Shown: piece after piece, positions 279 to 11,071 of the stretch
How the letters are laid out: every line of letters begins with the position of its first letter
Numbering within the stretch: the first letter of the stretch is position 1
Source: an uncultured Candidatus Saccharibacteria bacterium
GTDB lineage: Bacteria; Patescibacteriota; Minisyncoccia; SW-4-49-11
DNA: 64,000 nt
Assembly: GCA_964585065.1 (NCBI GenBank)
Contig: CAZPCB010000002.1
Span: 1,006 to 65,005, forward strand
Reading direction: 5' to 3'
Notes under the pieces: generated by a model
Seen by the model: the letters and a program-made list of their open reading frames with translations, nothing else
Databases searched by the model: none
Told to the model about the DNA's origin: nothing
Program-made: the position numbers and the translations under genes

Positions 279-353
279 TCCGCGATAGCTCAGCGGTAGA
301 GCAGTCGGCTGTTAACCGATTGGTCGTAGGTTCGAATCCTACTCGCGGAGCCA
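279..353 (+). tRNA. tRNA-Asn (anticodon GTT)
   Basis: Cloverleaf by eye: acceptor TCCGCGA/TCGCGGA (7 bp), D-arm GCTC..GAGC, anticodon stem GTCGG/CCGAT with loop CTGTTAA (GTT), T-arm GTAGG-TTCGAAT-CCTAC, discriminator G plus encoded CCA. Confidence 0.9.
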
Positions 354-717
354 AACAAGATAAAACCAGGGTAATTCCTGGTTTTATCTTTGTTATTACT
401 TTTGTAGAGAGTAGGATGAGAACCTGGGGAAGGGGTCGGGAAACTACTGTTTCCCGTGGTGGAGGGATTGGAACCGAGGGGTTCCAAGGAGTGAATCCCA
501 TTCACGACTGGTTTGCAATCCTACTCGCGGAGCCAAACAAGATAAAACCAGGGTAATTCCTGGTTTTATCTTTGTTATTACTTTTGTAGAGAGTAGGATG
601 AGAACCTGGGGAAGGGGTCGGGAAACTACTGTTTCCCGTGGTGGAGGGATTGGAACCGAGGGGTTCCAAGGAGTGAATCCCATTCACGACTGGTTTGCAA
701 TCCTACTCGCGGAGCCA
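354..717. repeat. Two perfect tandem copies of a 182-bp unit (354-535, 536-717) immediately 3' of tRNA-Asn. Each unit ends with a copy of the tRNA 3' end (..ggtttgcaatcctactcgcggagcca) and contains four hairpins.
   Basis: The string actcgcggagcca recurs at 341, 523 and 705 (period 182). Hairpins: aaaaccagg/cctggtttt, gggaaac/gtttccc, ttggaacc/ggttccaa, gtgaat/attcac. Outer stem agtaggat/atcctact. Confidence 0.9.
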
Positions 718-1353: not shown

Positions 1354-1393
1354 CCCACTCAAAGGTTCGAACATCCTCTAGCTCCCGGAGCCA
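1354..1393. repeat. pseudo-tRNA 3'-end fragment (ccactcaaaggttcgaacatcctctagctcccggagcca), degenerate copy of the tRNA-Asn T-loop/acceptor 3' half
   Basis: Contains ggttcgaa (T-loop) and ..cggagcca; the same fragment recurs at 3996-4036. Confidence 0.6.
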
Positions 1394-1573
1394 AACAAGA
1401 TAAAGCCAGGGTAATTCCTGGTTTTGTTTTTGTTATTGACTTTGAGAAAGTAGGATGAGAACCTGGGGAAGGGGTCGGGAAACGGAAGTTTCCCGTGGCG
1501 GAAATACCAAAACCGAGGGGTTTTGGGGAGTGAATCCCATTCACGACTGGTTTGCAATCCTACTCGCGGAGCA
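1394..1573. repeat. third, diverged copy (~90% identity) of the 182-bp tRNA-linked unit, followed by the same downstream flank (aactccctttaaatagc) as the array at 718
   Basis: Alignment by eye to 354-535. Hairpin 2 changed from ttggaacc/ggttccaa to ccaaaacc/ggttttgg (four compensatory pair changes). Hairpin 1 loop changed tact to ggaa. Confidence 0.85.
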
Positions 1574-1611
1574 AACTCCCTTTAAATAGCTTATTTTAGC
1601 TATTTTTTGGT

Positions 1612-2467: not shown

Positions 2468-3685
2468 TTATATATACTTTTGAGCTTCTATCCACTCCTC
2501 CTCGGATAAATTTCCTTTAATCACAAGAGATTTAATATGAGATGATAGGAATTGTTTTGCTAGAGATATAACTTCTTCATAAGATATTGCTCTGACTTGC
2601 TCATAGAAATCTTCTAAGGTAAGATGTATTCCGTCATCATAACGCAACTGAAATCCATAAAAAGACTGTATGTCATATATGCTACCATCTTGAGTTTTTT
2701 CATCACTTATATAAATAGTTTTATATCTTTCTATATCTTGTGGCGTTATCAAAGACTCCAGATTATTAATAGAGTTATAGATAATTTGCAATGACTCTAA
2801 TAGCTTCTCTTTATCTATTTTATATTGAATCTGTATGTCTATACTATTAGGATGTACATTTGAATATGAATCAATCCAATATACTAAACCATTCTTAATT
2901 CGTAGTTCTTGTAATAATACTGAAGTCCAAAAATTAGCTAAAGTTGTTCGTAGAATTGATACAGCCGTGCTAGTTCTAAGGTTTATCGTATTGGGGATAG
3001 CATACCCAAATAAAACTTCTAATGTGTTATCTGATGTTGGAAGCAATCTATTAGTAGATTTTACACTTTCTAAAGCTCCAAGAGATAAAAATGGCTCTAT
3101 AGAATTTACTTCTGAATCTAATATAATCTCATTTATATCTGGAGTAATAATTAATAAATGTGCTTGGTTCTTTGTATAATGCTTTTCTGCATAATAAATA
3201 TACTCCTCATATGTAATGCTATCTAAATCCCCAAATACATTATACGCTAAAGATGTGTTAGAGTACAAAGTATCAGTAAAAATTTTATAGATATTATTTT
3301 GATCATTAGCTTTTTCTTGAGCAATAATATTTTTTTCCTTTTCAAAAGCCTCTCGAGATACTGGTTCTTGATCAAAGTTGTTTAATAATAGTTGTAAAGA
3401 AGGTAAAAGATTATCTAACTCTTGGACATGATAGTAATAGGTTAAATATGCTGTTGTATAAGCATTAGCTCTAATTCCATACTCTTCTAAAGTTTTGGCC
3501 TTAGTATACTCATCATCTCCTCCTGCCCAAAGATGTTCAAAAAAATGAGATAAGCCTTGAGCATTAACATCATCAAGTGCATATCCTCGAGCAAACCAAA
3601 GAGATACAGAAGACATAATTTGTTGCCTATCTTCTATTACTGTAGTCTTAATCCCTTGATATATCCCATGTTTAATAGTGGGCAT
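2468..3685 (-). CDS. M16 family (pitrilysin/insulinase-like) zinc peptidase
   Basis: 405 aa; inverted zinc-binding motif HFFEH (HxxEH) near the N-terminus followed by a downstream Glu region; sits 7 bp from the hydrolase gene, likely an operon. Confidence 0.75.
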   Translation of the reverse strand: MPTIKHGIYQGIKTTVIEDRQQIMSSVSLWFARGYALDDVNAQGLSHFFEHLWAGGDDEYTKAKTLEEYGIRANAYTTAYLTYYYHVQELDNLLPSLQLLLNNFDQEPVSREAFEKEKNIIAQEKANDQNNIYKIFTDTLYSNTSLAYNVFGDLDSITYEEYIYYAEKHYTKNQAHLLIITPDINEIILDSEVNSIEPFLSLGALESVKSTNRLLPTSDNTLEVLFGYAIPNTINLRTSTAVSILRTTLANFWTSVLLQELRIKNGLVYWIDSYSNVHPNSIDIQIQYKIDKEKLLESLQIIYNSINNLESLITPQDIERYKTIYISDEKTQDGSIYDIQSFYGFQLRYDDGIHLTLEDFYEQVRAISYEEVISLAKQFLSSHIKSLVIKGNLSEEEWIEAQKYI

Positions 3686-3788: not shown

Positions 3789-3869
3789 CTACTTGCTGGG
3801 ACGAGGGGTGGGACGGCCAGAGCCATTCCCCCAACCTTGCGAACCGCCACCACCATTGCTATTGGCCAT
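3789..3869 (-). CDS. possible 26-aa Gly-rich small peptide (MANSNGGGGSQGWGNGSGRPTPRPSK) in a GC-rich patch; could instead be a structured leader RNA
   Basis: ATG at 3869, TAG at 3789-3791, GGAG 11 nt upstream; codon usage is GC-rich and unlike its surroundings; has its own promoter-like element and a downstream hairpin. Confidence 0.2.
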   Translation of the reverse strand: MANSNGGGGSQGWGNGSGRPTPRPSK

Positions 3870-3922
3870 TGAAATGAATCTCCGAAACGAAGGGGTAGAG
3901 AGACATTACTGTCTCAAAACCA

Positions 3923-3995: not shown

Positions 3996-4052
3996 CCCAC
4001 TCAAAGGTTCGAACATCGTCTAGCTCGCGGAGCCAACTCTCTTTAAATAGCT
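3996..4052. repeat. solo copy of the pseudo-tRNA-3' fragment joined directly to the downstream-flank motif (..cgcggagcca|actctctttaaatagc), i.e. an empty-site/attR-like junction
   Basis: Same fragment and flank as at 1354-1393/1574-1590, without the 182-bp unit between them. Confidence 0.6.
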
Positions 4053-4106
4053 TGATCGTAATATTCTCAATTAATGCTATACTACATGTATATTTAACTC
4101 TATTAT

Positions 4107-7302: not shown

Positions 7303-7430
7303 ATTATTTTTATGATTCTATTGTAATTATACACATTTATATATATTTTATCTACTTATAAAATTTATCTCCTCTCAAAACCATAGTGAGCCCCCTCTAG
7401 GGTAATGAGTGCTCTCTAACACTCATTTTT

Positions 7431-7460
7431 ATTATTGATTTTGAGAGAGTAGGATGAGAA
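7431..7460. repeat. fragment of the 182-bp unit (ttattgattttgagagagtaggatgagaa, matching 1436-1465)
   Basis: Similarity by eye; lies just left of the GC-rich island. Confidence 0.4.
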
Positions 7461-7541
7461 AAACTTAAGAATAAAGAATCCCCCCACTTAGGTGAGAGGA
7501 TTGTTGGAATTAGAGTTTACTTATCTTTCGTAGAGATTAAC

Positions 7542-8450
7542 TCAGTGATTTGCCTTTGCTAATAAAGCCTGTTTACTAGGAATCCGTAGCTGATAAGCCC
7601 AACCAAGACGCTCCAGAAATCGTATGAAGTAGTAGGTAGGGTCTGGTAGTGTTACTATCTTGTCCCCCCGTACTGTAAAACCCTGTCTTGCTGAATATTC
7701 GAAGCCATGATGTAGATTATGCCAACCCTCGCCAAGAGTGATAATAGCCACCCAAGTGTTGTTACGACTACCATCGCGGGTAATGAATGGCTGATCACCT
7801 ACTAAGTGGGCCACAGAGTTTACCGTAGCAACACCGTGGAACAAAAGAGTAGTGCTCAGACAAAATGCAACCAACCATTCTATACCACCGATATGCCAGG
7901 AGATCCAAGCTAATGCCAAAGCTGGCACTATATGTAGTCTATCGATCAAACGTAATACAGGATCAGACTCTATATCAGCTGGTAGGGTACTAGGATGAAA
8001 TCCAGGTGAAAGTATCCAACCTATCTGAGCATGCCAAAAACCATGCAGTCGATTTCTATACATCAGAGGGCTATGAGGATCATCCAAGGTATCAACATGA
8101 CGATGATGGGCCTTGTGATGAGCCTTCCACCAACTTGGTCCCATCTGGCCTGCTGAGGCTGTTATTATGGATCCGATCCACCATACTAGTCTAGGAGCCT
8201 TATAGCTACCATGAGTTATCAAGCGATGGTAAATGGCAGTAATTCCAAGCATCCGTACTAGGTATAATACTGTAGCCCAGAGTATGGCGCATAAGCCAAG
8301 TCTCTCCCGAAACAACAGTAGACAGCCTAGATGTGCAACCAGTATGAATACCGGTCCCATACCATGCAAAAACCGAAGGAGATGGGATTGGGAAATAGAA
8401 TGGGAAGATACTGCTGTGGAACTGATAGATTTTGAATTAAACATCAGCAT
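7542..8450 (-). CDS. membrane acyl-lipid/acyl-CoA delta-9 fatty acid desaturase (DesC-like)
   Basis: Three His boxes: HRLITH, HHKAHHRH..DPHSP, GEGWHNLHHGFEYSARQG. GC-rich codons. The ORF-track start (8513) is a TTG; the ATG at 8450 is more likely. Confidence 0.8.
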   Translation of the reverse strand: MLMFNSKSISSTAVSSHSISQSHLLRFLHGMGPVFILVAHLGCLLLFRERLGLCAILWATVLYLVRMLGITAIYHRLITHGSYKAPRLVWWIGSIITASAGQMGPSWWKAHHKAHHRHVDTLDDPHSPLMYRNRLHGFWHAQIGWILSPGFHPSTLPADIESDPVLRLIDRLHIVPALALAWISWHIGGIEWLVAFCLSTTLLFHGVATVNSVAHLVGDQPFITRDGSRNNTWVAIITLGEGWHNLHHGFEYSARQGFTVRGDKIVTLPDPTYYFIRFLERLGWAYQLRIPSKQALLAKANH

Positions 8451-8612
8451 ATTCCAGCCCAAACTGGACCATAAGGACATAAACACCTTAGCATACTTAT
8501 TATGTTTAATCAATATACAGAAATATATCTATTCTAGGATATGACACTTCTATCCTTCAAAGAAAAATCCCTCCAGCTGAGCCAAAGGGATTGAGTTAGA
8601 TTGAATTGTAGA

Positions 8613-9314
8613 TCAGATGAGAGCTGAGGCAGCCAGCTTGGCGATTTCACGGGTGGAGAATCCGATAGAGACCAAAGACTCCTGATACGCGATAAGGAAA
8701 TCCTCAATGAGGTCTTCCCTGTCCATTTGGAGGACGGCCGCGTCACCGGCTACCTGATCAAGCATAATGCGTACCAAGGGGAGATTGTCCCGATTGGCCT
8801 GCTCGAGCTCCTCACGACTGGCTTCAAAATTGGCTTTGAGCCATTCTTGGCCATAATTGAGATGAGTGTATTCATCCTTGACTACTCCCTCGGTGATTTT
8901 CCGCGCAAACGGATCGGCAACAGGTATATAGATGTGATAAGCTGCAATTGCAAAGGCCTCGATGAGAATCGCTTGAATCAGCAAACAGGTGACTACCTTC
9001 CTCTCTGTAAAAGCTTTTTGAAAATTGCCATGTAGGGGCAAGAAAAACTTTTTAGCAAAAGGTATATCTGCTTGCACTCCCAAGTTGCGGGCACAGGCAG
9101 TGAAACCCTTCATATGCCTCAGCTCCATACCCGCAAGGCGGGTAAGCTCTTCAGCCTGATCGGGTAGCAAGCTACCAAGGGAAATGTAATTGTCATAAGC
9201 TTCTTGCTCACCTTCAATCACAATGGCATTAATCCTACTATAGGCATCTTTGTAAATGGCGCTGGTGAAGTCAGGAAGAGAGATTTGTTCTTGAGAAAGA
9301 GCAGTTGTGTTCAT
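8613..9314 (-). CDS. aldehyde-deformylating oxygenase (cyanobacterial-type alkane-forming ADO, ferritin-like di-iron)
   Basis: The strings [71 protein letters not shown].. are close to the Synechococcus orf1593 family as recalled. ATG at 9314; the track start at 9338 is a TTG. Confidence 0.8.
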
Positions 9315-9865: not shown

Positions 9866-11071
9866 ATGGAGCATTTAACCATGTCTGCTCAGACACGTGT
9901 TGAGAGATTTTTTGATAAAGCAGGAGTTGACCAAACCTTTATTACTGCAACTTCTAAGTTTTATAAAGCTTTCGATGGACGGTTCACCCTTGGAATGGGT
10001 GAATCTTATATCAATGGCAGTTTTGCGATTGGTGATGAGAATCTCATCGAAATGTTTACCAGAATTTTTGGAAGCTTAAATGGATTCTTGCGGGGAGATG
10101 ATTATGCTGGGTTTAGCTCACTGGGATTTTATCGGCTGTATCAGCTGATGAATGCCACCCAAATGATCAATTGGCAACACATCCGTGCAAAGTATTTTGC
10201 GGATATTCACTATGAGCTACCTCATCAGCTTTTTGTCCAGATGCTTGGCCCCTCTCGGGCTTATAGCTCTGGTTATTGGCCAGAGGGGGTGGAGACTCTA
10301 GACCAGGCTCAGGATGCCAAGTTTGACTTGATTATCCGCAAGCTTGGTCTCAAAGCCGGTGAAACCGTACTCGACTTCGGTTGTGGGGCGGGTAGTTTTG
10401 GCAGATATGCAGGATCTCGCGGTATTCGAGTCGTAGGACTCAATATCTGCCAGGAACAACTCGCTTATGCTCGAGCTCACAATGACCAAGAAGTTCCTGC
10501 AATTTACCTTGATTTTAATTTGGTAACACAAAGTGTTGCTGAGTTACAATCAATTCTCAAACCCTATGGGATTGAGAATTTCGATGCTGTTACCTTTATT
10601 GGCTCGATTGAGCATGTGGGTTGGAAGAACTATGCTTCTCTCTATCGCAAGCTCTATCAGCTTCTGAATCCTACGGGACGGATTCTCTGCCATGTTATTG
10701 GATCCTATATTCCATTACCGGTGGCCGATCCCTATATCATGACCAAGATTTTCCCTGACTCGCAGCTTGCTGTGATCAGTGAAATGACCAAGGCAACTGA
10801 GAAGACTGGCTTCCAGCTAATGGATTGGCACAACCTGGAAACAGGTGTTCACTCCTATGCCAAGACACTGAGAGCTTGGCTTAACAACTTCCAAACCAAC
10901 TGGGAAACTATCAAGCCCTCTATGCCTCACAAAGATAAGGAAGCCTTTTACCGAGAATGGGTATTCTACCTAATGCTCTGTATTGGAGCCTTCGAGTCTG
11001 ACTTTGTCAATGTTGGGCACTATGTGTTCCGCAAGACTGCAGACACTCACCCATTCACTCCAGTCCGCTAA
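9866..11071 (+). CDS. cyclopropane-fatty-acyl-phospholipid synthase family SAM-dependent methyltransferase
   Basis: 401 aa; SAM motif VLDFGCGAGSF; CMAS-like length and C-terminal region; GC-rich. Confidence 0.7.
   Translation: MEHLTMSAQTRVERFFDKAGVDQTFITATSKFYKAFDGRFTLGMGESYINGSFAIGDENLIEMFTRIFGSLNGFLRGDDYAGFSSLGFYRLYQLMNATQMINWQHIRAKYFADIHYELPHQLFVQMLGPSRAYSSGYWPEGVETLDQAQDAKFDLIIRKLGLKAGETVLDFGCGAGSFGRYAGSRGIRVVGLNICQEQLAYARAHNDQEVPAIYLDFNLVTQSVAELQSILKPYGIENFDAVTFIGSIEHVGWKNYASLYRKLYQLLNPTGRILCHVIGSYIPLPVADPYIMTKIFPDSQLAVISEMTKATEKTGFQLMDWHNLETGVHSYAKTLRAWLNNFQTNWETIKPSMPHKDKEAFYREWVFYLMLCIGAFESDFVNVGHYVFRKTADTHPFTPVR

What the first reader, a model, noticed from the sequence alone, without database searches (positions are those of the whole stretch)
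1354..1590. Third, diverged copy of the 182-bp unit shows fully compensatory base-pair changes, arguing for a selected RNA structure
Relative to the copies at 354-717, the copy at 1394-1573 keeps the outer stem and hairpin 3 identical but changes hairpin 2 from ttggaacc/ggttccaa to ccaaaacc/ggttttgg. That is four paired positions changed on both strands with pairing preserved. It also swaps the hairpin-1 loop tact for a GNRA-like ggaa. The downstream flank aactccctttaaatagc is the same flank that follows the tandem array at the tRNA.
Basis: seen in the sequence. Interest (0 to 1): 0.65.

Follow-up and report, generated by a model that had tools for sequence, protein, structure and literature searches.

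The report
RtT-like structured RNA module behind tRNA-Asn
The diverged third copy belongs to a conserved, strongly folded 130-180-nt module that sits directly behind tRNA genes in Patescibacteria (candidate phyla radiation bacteria) and ends in a copy of the tRNA's last 19 bases, an arrangement known so far only from the poorly understood RtT RNA of E. coli.

Summary
Copy 3 (1394-1573) differs from the tandem copies (354-717) at 20 of 133 domain positions. Eight of these lie in stems and form four fully compensated pairs in hairpin 2; no stem change is uncompensated.

A covariance model found 18 copies (16 distinct sequences) in related Patescibacteria contigs. Of the pair cells, 95% form a standard pair, and compensatory changes occur in all three hairpins. 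In one lineage hairpin 2 is a broken recombinant.

Each unit consists of:
- a terminator-like hairpin;
- a GC-rich five-helix domain;
- the last 19 nt (A58-A76) of the upstream tRNA.

The closing helix pairs that tRNA copy with an antisense copy of it. A relative behind tRNA-Trp ends in the tRNA-Trp 3' end instead. Orthologous tRNA-Asn loci carry 0, 1 or 2 units, inserted exactly between CCA and the terminator.

The closest known thing is E. coli RtT. It has the same position, the same 19-nt tRNA end, tandem units, and a closing helix containing GGAUGAGAA. The interior differs, and the Rfam score is 18.8 bits against a threshold of 45.

Best reading: an RtT-like RNA carried in the tRNA trailer, whose copy number varies. 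Function is unknown and expression is untested.

The parts
279..353 (+). tRNA-Asn(GUU) gene with encoded CCA. Its last 19 nt (335-353, A58-A76) is the sequence repeated at the end of every unit. A sigma-70-like promoter (TTGACT-17-TACAAT) lies at 226-254.
   Evidence: ARAGORN; Rfam tRNA 73.5 bits; promoter scan
354..535 (+). Unit 1 (182 bp). Terminator-like hairpin 357-390; domain 403-535. Helices: P1 409-417/518-526, P2 420-424/510-514, hairpin 1 437-444/449-456, hairpin 2 468-475/480-487, hairpin 3 491-496/500-505. Copy of the tRNA 3' end 517-535.
   Evidence: CM R1, 157.5 bits
536..717 (+). Unit 2, 100% identical to unit 1 (domain 585-717). It is followed by the flank AACTCTAAAAAATAGCTA.
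1354..1393 (+). tRNA-3'-like pseudo-site CCCACTCAAAGGTTCGAACATCCTCTAGCTCCCGGAGCCA, standing where a tRNA 3' end would stand in front of copy 3. It is conserved in several related genomes.
   Evidence: (D3)
1394..1574 (+). Unit 3, the finding. Terminator-like hairpin 1397-1430; domain 1442-1574. Helices: P1 1449-1456/1557-1564, P2 1459-1463/1549-1553, hairpin 1 1476-1483/1488-1495 (GGAA loop), hairpin 2 1507-1514/1519-1526 (type B, CCAAAACC/GGUUUUGG), hairpin 3 1530-1535/1539-1544. The tRNA-like end 1556-1573 reads ...GGAGCA instead of GGAGCCA.
   Evidence: (163.2 bits)
1575..1608 (+). Flank ACTCCCTTTAAATAGCT-TATTTT-AGCTATTTTTT. This is the intrinsic-terminator module that directly follows unit-free tRNA-Asn genes in related genomes.
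3996..4053 (+). 'Empty' site: the same pseudo-site (95% identical to 1354-1394) joined directly to the ACTCTCTTTAAATAGCTT flank, with no unit between.
   Evidence: (D2, D3)
7426..7461 (+). Truncated unit: only the 5' part is present (..TTATTATTGATTTTGAGAGAGTAGGATGAGAA) before it breaks off. It is preceded by a hairpin at 7403-7430.

Best explanation
The 182-bp unit is a non-coding module in the 3' trailer of tRNA-Asn. It carries a selected, compact five-helix RNA domain of about 115-130 nt, built on the same plan as the E. coli RtT RNA.

**Shown**
- The module always lies on the tRNA strand, immediately after a tRNA 3' end or after a tRNA-3'-like pseudo-site.
- It ends with an exact copy of tRNA positions A58-A76.
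- Its closing helix pairs that copy with an antisense copy of the T-loop, T-stem and acceptor segment.
- Three internal hairpins are maintained by compensatory change.
- Copy number at orthologous tRNA-Asn loci is 0, 1 or 2.

**Inferred**
- The module is read through from the strong tRNA promoter.
- It is cut away from the tRNA by the normal tRNA 3'-end machinery.
- The tRNA-type 3' end and the closing helix protect it, as happens for RtT, whose annotated 3' end is the CCA of the first repeat.
- The 19-nt direct repeats let units be gained, lost and multiplied. This would occur by recombination or slippage at the tRNA 3' end, or by a recombinase acting in trans.

The cellular role of the RNA is not known. 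By analogy with RtT it may be linked to tRNA supply or the starvation response.
For: **Structure**
- Fold z-scores are -6.6 and -5.2.
- 95.2% of pair cells form a standard pair and 14 of 35 pairs covary; 0 of 500 shuffles reach this, and slid controls give 2-6. The alignment-independent check is.
- Copy 1 and copy 3 differ by 8 substitutions in the modelled stems, all compensated and all transitions.
- A roughly 100-nt insertion in L009a forms its own stem in a junction and leaves the rest of the fold intact.
- The domain is 53-55% G+C in a genome of about 33% G+C.

**Family and context**
- CM R1 finds copies in Paceibacterota, Parcubacteria and Saccharibacteria MAGs and in metagenome contigs.
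- Each copy follows tRNA-Asn (with or without a group I intron) or the pseudo-site.
- The copy behind tRNA-Trp (L029) ends in the tRNA-Trp 3' end.
- The domain is 92-95% identical between genomes whose neighbouring M16 peptidases are only 57-59% identical.

**Presence and absence**
- tRNA-Asn is joined directly to the terminator in L036, L037, L030 and L042. One unit is present in L004, L033, L006 and L009; L040 holds at least the 3' end of one at the contig edge; two are present here.

**RtT parallel**
- RtT is the top Rfam hit for the isolated domain, end to end (18.8 bits). It shares the closing helix and GGAUGAGAAcCU.
- R1 ranks the three E. coli tyrT repeats as the top three hits in the 3-kb tyrT locus, in register and 178 nt apart.
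- Each tyrT repeat ends with the last 19 nt of tRNA-Tyr, and rttR ends at that CCA.
- RtT-family RNAs next to tRNA-Asn and tRNA-Lys genes are expressed in Actinobacillus (PMC4986893).
Against: - No expression data exist for this module.
- A good intrinsic-terminator-like hairpin lies between the tRNA and the domain, and it occurs in three unrelated sequence versions across copies. No promoter-like site lies in front of the domain. Transcription would therefore depend on read-through.
- The last 9 nt (GCGGAGCCA) are not needed for the predicted fold, yet CUCGCGGAG is invariant. That fits a recombination core as well as it fits an RNA function.
- The L008/L030a copy has a recombinant hairpin 2 with four broken pairs and still persists.
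- The strand test by G-U versus A-C pairs is mixed. There is an invariant G-U in P2 and a few others on the + strand, but six A-C cells occur in the two decayed copies.
- Similarity to RtT is confined to the closing helix. The interiors do not align, the scores are far below threshold, and RtT itself is not significantly stable (z = -1.06).
Confidence: 0.55

Rival explanations
1. The unit is a miniature integrative (cis-mobilisable) DNA element that targets the tRNA-Asn 3' end. A 182-bp circle carrying an attP-like copy of the tRNA end would integrate by site-specific recombination using a recombinase supplied in trans. In this reading the hairpins are recombination or architectural sites, or folded single-stranded DNA, rather than a functional RNA.
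For: - The unit is flanked by exact 19-nt direct repeats that start in the T-loop (A58), a classical crossover location. Just upstream of the identity block the similarity to the tRNA decays (GGTTTGCA versus GGTTCGA).
- Orthologous sites are precisely filled or empty.
- Units occur in tandem.
- Each unit brings a terminator for the reconstituted tRNA.
- Further tRNA-3'-like pseudo-sites, each with a terminator, separate small gene blocks downstream of tRNA-Asn in the same orientation, like accreted islets.
- A truncated unit sits at 7426-7461, next to a block of different G+C content.
Against: - No integrase, transposase or reverse transcriptase appears among the 25 listed of 51 Pfam families matched by 36 neighbouring ORFs of 220 aa or more in ten loci.
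- There are no matches in phage or plasmid collections or in IMG/VR.
- Compensatory, transition-only changes in three GC-rich hairpins, and a stem-forming insertion in a junction, are what a folded strand predicts, not duplex protein-binding sites.
- The core is almost invariant across distant lineages and different tRNAs.
Confidence: 0.22
2. The unit is an anti-tRNA or tRNA-mimic riboregulator. Its 17-nt antisense segment would toggle between pairing with the unit's own tRNA-like 3' strand and pairing with the T-arm/acceptor 3' strand of (pre-)tRNA-Asn. The conserved G-rich junction domain would act as the sensor or protein-binding platform.
For: - The antisense segment 409-425 pairs with the real tRNA region 328-344 at -23.2 kcal/mol, forming 15 Watson-Crick pairs plus a tandem G-A. 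With its own 3' strand it pairs at -19.9 kcal/mol ([I14], 97).
- GGAUGAGAACC, rather than the exact antisense GGAUUCGAACC, is shared with the RtT consensus.
- The junction strands (CCUGGGGAAGGGGUC, GUGGYGGA) are the most conserved part of the family across the Asn-, Trp- and Arg-linked versions.
Against: - The idea is purely thermodynamic and sequence-based.
- The tRNA folds before the antisense segment is transcribed.
- One copy (L030b) has the exact antisense sequence, so the G-A feature is not universal.
- No ligand or protein partner has been identified.
Confidence: 0.1
3. The unit is decaying repetitive DNA with no selected function: duplicated tRNA 3' fragments and palindromes. The hairpin-2 difference would result from one recombination or template-switch event.
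For: - The four hairpin-2 changes form one contiguous block. A half-and-half recombinant exists, which shows that whole arms are exchanged between copies.
- Several copies are truncated or interrupted.
Against: - Domain identity of 92-95% across genomes with 57-59% identical neighbouring proteins is far above neutral expectation.
- No uncompensated change in the modelled stems separates copies 1 and 3, against 12 changes in unpaired positions.
- Independent compensatory variants occur in three hairpins.
- Folding z-scores are extreme.
Confidence: 0.06
4. The unit is a cis-regulatory leader or riboswitch for the gene downstream, as the weak ylbH-leader match might suggest.
For: The Rfam ylbH leader scores 27 and 24 bits (E = 0.007-0.04 in 4 kb) over the terminator hairpin and hairpin 1.
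Against: - The score is below the threshold of 50 bits, and many positions in the alignment are non-canonical pairs.
- Downstream genes differ from locus to locus or are convergent; copy 3 is followed by a terminator and then the 3' end of a minus-strand gene.
- The unit's constant partner is the upstream tRNA end, not a downstream ORF.
Confidence: 0.02

Closest known systems
RtT RNA (rttR; Rfam RF00391) of the E. coli tyrT-tyrV operon and RtT-family RNAs next to other tRNA genes in Gammaproteobacteria
   Same: - It lies immediately 3' of a tRNA gene on the same strand.
- The repeat unit is of similar size (178 versus 182 bp) and occurs in tandem.
- Every unit ends with exactly the last 19 nt (A58-A76) of the tRNA.
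- The closing helix is formed by that copy and an antisense copy.
- GGAUGAGAAcCU is shared at the base of the helix.
- Each is the other's best weak match in covariance-model searches.
- RtT-family members also occur beside tRNA-Asn (PMC4986893).
   Different: - The interior (three GC-rich hairpins plus G-rich junctions) does not align with RtT.
- Scores are 18.8 bits against a gathering threshold of 45, and 9-11 bits in the reverse direction.
- The Patescibacteria domain is far more stable (z about -6, against -1).
- A terminator-like hairpin precedes the domain.
- The host phylum is Patescibacteria, not Enterobacteria or Pasteurellaceae.
- No counterpart of the tpr mini-ORF was looked for.
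sRNAs derived from tRNA 3' external transcribed spacers (for example 3'ETS-leuZ of E. coli; from my own knowledge, not checked here)
   Same: A stable small RNA is released from the trailer of a tRNA transcript by tRNA-processing nucleases.
   Different: Those are short and largely unstructured sponges for sRNAs. They have no tRNA-end copy, no tandem units and no conserved multi-helix fold.
Integrative elements and cis-mobilisable elements (CIMEs) accreted at tRNA genes (general knowledge of tRNA-gene integration sites)
   Same: - Direct repeats of the tRNA 3' end flank the insert.
- The identity block starts in the T-loop.
- The insert restores the tRNA end and supplies a terminator.
- Orthologous sites are filled or empty.
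- Accretion occurs in tandem, with att-like pseudo-sites further downstream.
   Different: - The insert is only 163 bp between repeats and has no coding capacity.
- No integrase is found nearby.
- The insert is a conserved folded domain with covariation.

Membership tests
RtT RNA (RF00391) | Lies directly downstream of a tRNA gene on the same strand | tested here: met
   Units start at the base after the CCA of tRNA-Asn (354). The same holds in L004, L033, L006, L009 and L029.
RtT RNA (RF00391) | Each unit ends with a copy of the tRNA's 3'-terminal 19 nt including CCA; units are tandem | tested here: met
   AATCCTACTCGCGGAGCCA occurs at 335-353, 517-535 and 699-717; the copy at 1556-1573 reads ...GGAGCA. 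There are two identical tandem units. E. coli has AATCCTTCCCCCACCACCA at 178-nt spacing.
RtT RNA (RF00391) | Closing helix between an antisense copy and the tRNA 3' copy, with conserved GGAUGAGAA | tested here: met
   The cmscan alignment matches AGGAUGAGAACCU and AAUCCU...CCA to the consensus. One family member (L030b) has GGAUUCGAACC instead.
RtT RNA (RF00391) | Score at or above Rfam's gathering threshold (45 bits), with an alignable interior | tested here: not met
   The score is 18.8 bits. The interior is skipped in both directions (57 versus 69 nt; 84 versus 75 nt).
RtT RNA (RF00391) | Released as a stable RNA from the tRNA primary transcript | not testable with these tools
   No transcript data are available. 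A terminator-like hairpin precedes the domain.
tRNA-gene integrative or cis-mobilisable element | Insert flanked by direct repeats of the tRNA 3' end, with filled and empty orthologous sites | tested here: met
   There are 19-nt repeats. L036, L037, L030 and L042 have tRNA-Asn joined directly to the terminator.
tRNA-gene integrative or cis-mobilisable element | Cognate integrase in the element or nearby; circular excised form | tested here: inconclusive
   No recombinase family appears among the 25 listed of 51 Pfam families from 36 neighbouring ORFs. Only 8-14 kb per locus was examined, and circular forms cannot be tested.
MITE (miniature inverted-repeat transposable element) | Family-specific terminal inverted repeats, short target-site duplication, dispersal to many unrelated sites | tested here: not met
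   The inverted terminal segments change with the adjacent tRNA (Asn versus Trp). The 'duplication' is 19 nt. All copies sit at tRNA ends or tRNA-like pseudo-sites.
tRNA / tmRNA / tRNA-like gene | Cloverleaf or tmRNA recognised by ARAGORN or by the Rfam tRNA clan | tested here: not met
   Only tRNA-Asn 279-353 is detected, and nothing in the units. The unit lacks a 5' acceptor strand.
ylbH leader (RF00516) or other cis-regulatory leader | Score above threshold and a conserved downstream gene | tested here: not met
   The score is 27 bits against 50, with many non-canonical pairs. Downstream genes vary or are convergent.

The most novel reading that the evidence does not exclude
The module is a two-faced element. 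It would be a self-propagating 182-bp mini-insertion that exploits the tRNA 3' end as its attachment site without encoding any protein. Its RNA would be an anti-tRNA switch: a conserved G-rich four-way-junction sensor decides whether a 17-nt antisense segment pairs with the module's own tRNA-like tail or with the T-arm/acceptor strand of (pre-)tRNA-Asn. That choice would tune maturation or availability of that tRNA. On this reading E. coli RtT is a degenerate cousin, which would finally give that 35-year-old orphan RNA a mechanism.
Probability: 0.1. Interest if true: 0.8.

Novelty: new variant of a known kind. Interest (0 to 1): 0.55.

Why it matters
Patescibacteria have tiny genomes and few known regulatory RNAs. 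Against that background, a strongly conserved, highly structured RNA-like module tied to tRNA genes, absent from Rfam, is a good candidate for a new functional RNA class in that phylum.

Its ground plan matches E. coli RtT, whose function is still unknown. A deep or convergent link between the two would suggest that "tRNA trailer modules ending in a tRNA 3' copy" are a general bacterial device.

The much better-defined fold found here would make that device easier to test, by structure probing, processing assays and comparative genomics. The variation from 0 to 2 units at orthologous loci also gives a natural handle for studying how such modules spread.

Tried and rejected
- **Rfam.** At gathering thresholds on the window and six loci, only tRNA and group I introns were found. 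Sub-threshold ylbH, sroE and miRNA hits were rejected as chance.
- **tRNA or tmRNA reading of the unit and the pseudo-site.** ARAGORN finds nothing there, and the acceptor 5' strand is absent.
- **Phage or plasmid origin.** No blastn match was found in the phage or plasmid collections. The 16-mer gave only chance hits in IMG/VR.
- **Mobility genes nearby.** None appears among the 25 listed of 51 Pfam families matched by the 36 ORFs of 220 aa or more that were scanned.
- **GC-rich stretch at 3793-3900.** I first suspected a related RNA. It is a 26-aa glycine-rich ORF on the minus strand with its own promoter and terminator.
- **IS200/IS605-type omega-RNA or guide reading.** The "left-end hairpin" exists in three unrelated versions, the putative guide is sequestered in the closing helix, and no TnpB was seen among the listed families. 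This rests on inference, not a dedicated test.
- **MITE reading.** The terminal segments track the tRNA.
- **Strand assignment from G-U versus A-C counts.** The result was ambiguous.
- **Literature.** Full-text searches found no description of such a module in Patescibacteria. A 2026 paper on tRNA group I introns in this phylum does not mention it. Bosl and Kersten 1991 is not held.

Full report
**Observation.** The window starts with a tRNA-Asn(GUU) gene (279-353). It is followed by two identical 182-bp units (354-535 and 536-717). A third, diverged unit lies at 1394-1573.
- Hairpin 2 is TTGGAACC/GGTTCCAA in the tandem copies and CCAAAACC/GGTTTTGG in copy 3.
- The hairpin 1 loop changes from TACT to GGAA.
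- The inner stem and hairpin 3 are identical, and 8 of the 9 outer-stem pairs are kept. The outermost pair, G409-C526, is A1448/C1565 in copy 3; that column lies outside the 35-pair model.

Over the 133-nt domain the copies differ at 20 columns. Twelve are in 63 unpaired positions and 8 in 70 paired positions. All 8 form four compensated pairs, and no change in the modelled stems is uncompensated. All eight substitutions are transitions, so each pair could have passed through a G-U intermediate. Both copies fold far better than dinucleotide shuffles (z = -6.6 and -5.2).

One detail is imprecise. The flank after copy 3 is only 70% identical to the flank after the tandem array. It is 93% identical to the flank of a unit-free site at 4024-4053.

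**Anatomy.** Each unit has three parts.
1. A hairpin of about 14-15 pairs with flanking A and U tracts, which looks like an intrinsic terminator (357-390).
2. A GC-rich domain (53-55% G+C in a genome of about 33% G+C). It has a closing helix P1 (409-417/518-526), an internal loop, P2 (420-424/510-514) and three hairpins (437-456, 468-487, 491-505). These are joined by purine-rich strands (UGGGGAAGGGGU and UGGUGGAGGGA).
3. An exact copy of the last 19 nt of the tRNA, A58 to A76 (517-535).

The 3' strand of P1 is part of that tRNA copy. The 5' strand (GAGUAGGAUGAGAACCU) is an antisense copy of the tRNA's T-loop, T-stem and acceptor segment (pair I14). The last nine bases (GCGGAGCCA) are unpaired in the predicted fold.

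**The family.** I made one scan of species-representative genomes and one of JGI metagenomes with the conserved junction sequence. I then looked up contigs that encode homologues of the neighbouring M16 peptidase. Together these gave 18 matches to a covariance model built here (R1), comprising 16 distinct sequences.

The source records are MAGs labelled Paceibacterota, Parcubacteria, Saccharibacteria, Uhrbacteria and Patescibacteria. The window itself is 94.6% identical over 314 nt to a Parcubacteria MAG, so it most likely comes from this phylum.

In every case the module is on the tRNA strand. It directly follows one of these:
- tRNA-Asn (L004, L033);
- tRNA-Asn with a group I intron in the anticodon loop (L006, L009);
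- a conserved tRNA-3'-like pseudo-site, CCCACTCAAAGGTTCGAACATCxTCTAGCTCxCGGAGCCA (copy 3 here, L008, L009b, L030).

A relative behind tRNA-Trp (L029) keeps the core at about 85% identity but ends in the tRNA-Trp 3' end. Partial or interrupted relatives follow tRNA-Arg (L003) and tRNA-Trp (L007).

**Is the structure selected?**
- **Model-fitted alignment.** 95.2% of pair cells form a standard pair, and 14 of 35 pairs have changes on both sides. No shuffle out of 500 reaches the observed values. Sliding the partners by 1-3 columns leaves only 2-6 covarying pairs and 30-56% pairing.
- **Independent MAFFT alignment of nine full copies.** This gives 7 covarying pairs spread over hairpins 1, 2 and 3.
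- **Hairpin 2 states.** There are four compatible states: UUGGAACC/GGUUCCAA; CCAAAACC/GGUUUUGG (copy 3 and L031); UUCAAACC/GGUUUGAA (L029); and CUGAAACC/GGUGUCAG (L003, one mismatch).
- **Other hairpins.** Hairpin 3 is GUGAAU/AUUCAC or GUCGC/GCGAC. Hairpin 1 is CGGGAAAC/GUUUCCCG or CGGGGAAC/GUUCCCCG.
- **Junction insertion.** A roughly 100-nt insertion in L009a forms its own stem inside a junction and leaves the rest of the fold intact.
- **Conservation.** The domain is 92-95% identical between genomes whose adjacent M16 peptidases are only 57-59% identical. By contrast, the hairpin in front of the domain occurs in three unrelated versions.

Caveats apply:
- The variation comes from only three or four lineages.
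- L008/L030a carries the left arm of one hairpin-2 type and the right arm of the other, breaking four pairs. Arms are therefore exchanged by recombination between copies, and that copy is probably decaying.
- The G-U versus A-C strand test is mixed.
- Folded single-stranded DNA cannot be excluded.

**Gain and loss.** Orthologous tRNA-Asn loci, with the same promoter and the same neighbouring genes, have the tRNA joined directly to the terminator module ACyCCCTTTAAACAGCT...AGCTGTTTTTTGG in L037 and L030. L036 and L042 carry a second terminator version in the same position. One unit lies between CCA and that terminator in L004, L033, L006 and L009; L040 holds at least the 3' end of one at the contig edge; two lie there in this window.

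The unit is therefore a precise 182-bp insertion bounded by 19-nt direct repeats, and the flank after copy 3 is simply the tRNA-type terminator.

Pseudo-sites followed by the same terminator recur downstream of tRNA-Asn in the same orientation. They separate small gene blocks (window 1354 and 3996; L036 and L037, two each), like displaced tRNA ends after serial insertions. A truncated unit lies at 7426-7461.

No integrase, transposase or reverse transcriptase appeared among the 25 listed of 51 Pfam families matched by 36 neighbouring ORFs. The unit has no match in phage, plasmid or IMG/VR collections.

**Comparison with RtT.** For the isolated domain, the best Rfam match is RtT (RF00391). It aligns end to end at 18.8 bits, against a threshold of 45. 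In the wider 4-kb search the ylbH leader scored higher (27 bits) over the terminator hairpin and hairpin 1, but that match is not credible.

The match reflects a shared ground plan:
- In E. coli the tyrT-tyrV tRNA genes are followed by 178-bp tandem units.
- Each unit ends with the last 19 nt of tRNA-Tyr.
- The annotated small RNA RttR ends at the CCA of the first unit.
- The RtT consensus closes with GgGaaGGAUGAGAAcCU...aAUCCuuCcC. That is an antisense and a sense copy of the tRNA end, with the T-loop complement changed from GGAUUCGAA to GGAUGAGAA, exactly as in the Asn-linked units here.

In the reverse direction, model R1 ranks the three tyrT repeats as its top three hits in that 3-kb locus, in register (9.4-10.8 bits, E = 0.06-0.13).

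The interiors do not align in either direction, and RtT is not notably stable (z = -1.06). RtT-family RNAs beside tRNA-Asn and tRNA-Lys genes are expressed in Actinobacillus (PMC4986893). Their function remains unclear; a role in the stringent response has been proposed.

I therefore treat the module as organised like RtT, and possibly distantly related to it. It is not a member of RF00391.

**Most likely mechanism.**

*Shown:*
- a conserved fold maintained by compensation;
- strict linkage to tRNA 3' ends;
- a terminal copy of the cognate tRNA end;
- variable copy number at orthologous sites.

*Inferred:*
- The module is transcribed by read-through from the tRNA promoter (TTGACT-17-TACAAT at 226-254).
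- It is separated from the tRNA by the tRNA 3'-processing machinery.
- It is stabilised by the closing helix and the tRNA-type end, as RtT is.
- The 19-nt repeats mediate duplication, loss and transfer to other tRNA-like ends.

The main weakness is the terminator-like hairpin in front of the domain, together with the lack of any expression data.

The chief rival is a protein-less mini-integrative DNA element. The two readings are not exclusive.

A more speculative reading notes that the antisense segment pairs better with the real tRNA (-23.2 kcal/mol) than with the unit's own tail (-19.9 kcal/mol). That would allow an anti-tRNA switch.

**Verdict.** The finding is real, and its interpretation (a selected structure) is supported. 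The element is a new, well-folded Patescibacteria variant of the RtT type of tRNA-trailer module. Its function is unknown.

Noticed in passing
L006 5748-6046 (+); L009 3583-3821 (-); L030 about 8330-8700 (-): The tRNA-Asn genes of these related genomes carry a group I intron in the anticodon loop (Rfam RF00028, 73-87 bits), so ARAGORN misses them. The window's tRNA-Asn has no intron. This matches a 2026 report on tRNA introns in Patescibacteria (PMC13011429).
   Followed up: partly
window 1354-1393 and 3996-4035; L036 about 5632 and 4251; L037 about 5640 and 4818; L030 and L009, several: A conserved 40-nt tRNA-3'-like pseudo-site, followed by the same terminator as tRNA-Asn, recurs in the tRNA's orientation between small gene blocks. 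It looks like displaced tRNA ends left by serial insertions at tRNA-Asn. It is not a tRNA by ARAGORN or Rfam.
   Followed up: partly
window 3789-3869 (-), promoter 3951->3923, terminator 3752-3728: A 26-aa glycine-rich ORF (MANSNGGGGSQGWGNGSGRPTPRPSK) has a Shine-Dalgarno sequence, a sigma-70-like promoter (TTGACA-17-TAGATT) and a terminator. It explains the GC-rich patch here. A 37-aa Gly-rich counterpart lies at the same place in L036.
   Followed up: partly
window 7426-7461, and the 8-12 kb block: A truncated unit (5' part only) sits at 7426-7461, just upstream (in window coordinates) of a fatty-acid desaturase gene that opens a higher-GC block (about 42% against 33%). The block encodes the desaturase, aldehyde decarbonylase (Ald_deCOase), a CMAS-type methyltransferase and AdoMet decarboxylase. 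These are unusual genes for Patescibacteria, yet most of the block is also present in relatives L036 and L037.
   Followed up: partly
L009 about 3290-3450 (-): The unit behind this intron-containing tRNA-Asn has a roughly 100-nt GC-rich insertion in the junction between P2 and hairpin 1. The insertion folds as a self-contained stem.
   Followed up: partly
L007 about 3010-3200 (-), identical in L028 and L034: The tRNA-Trp-linked relative in an Uhrbacteria MAG is interrupted after hairpin 1 by a long hairpin of roughly 170 nt (arms of about 55-60 nt). This may be a nested palindromic insertion.
   Followed up: no
L001 (Logan contig SRR8942238_50479), end at 10531: An independent assembly of the same genome region breaks exactly inside copy 3, as expected for a repeat that assemblers cannot resolve. 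Copy numbers of this module in short-read MAGs are probably underestimated.
   Followed up: no
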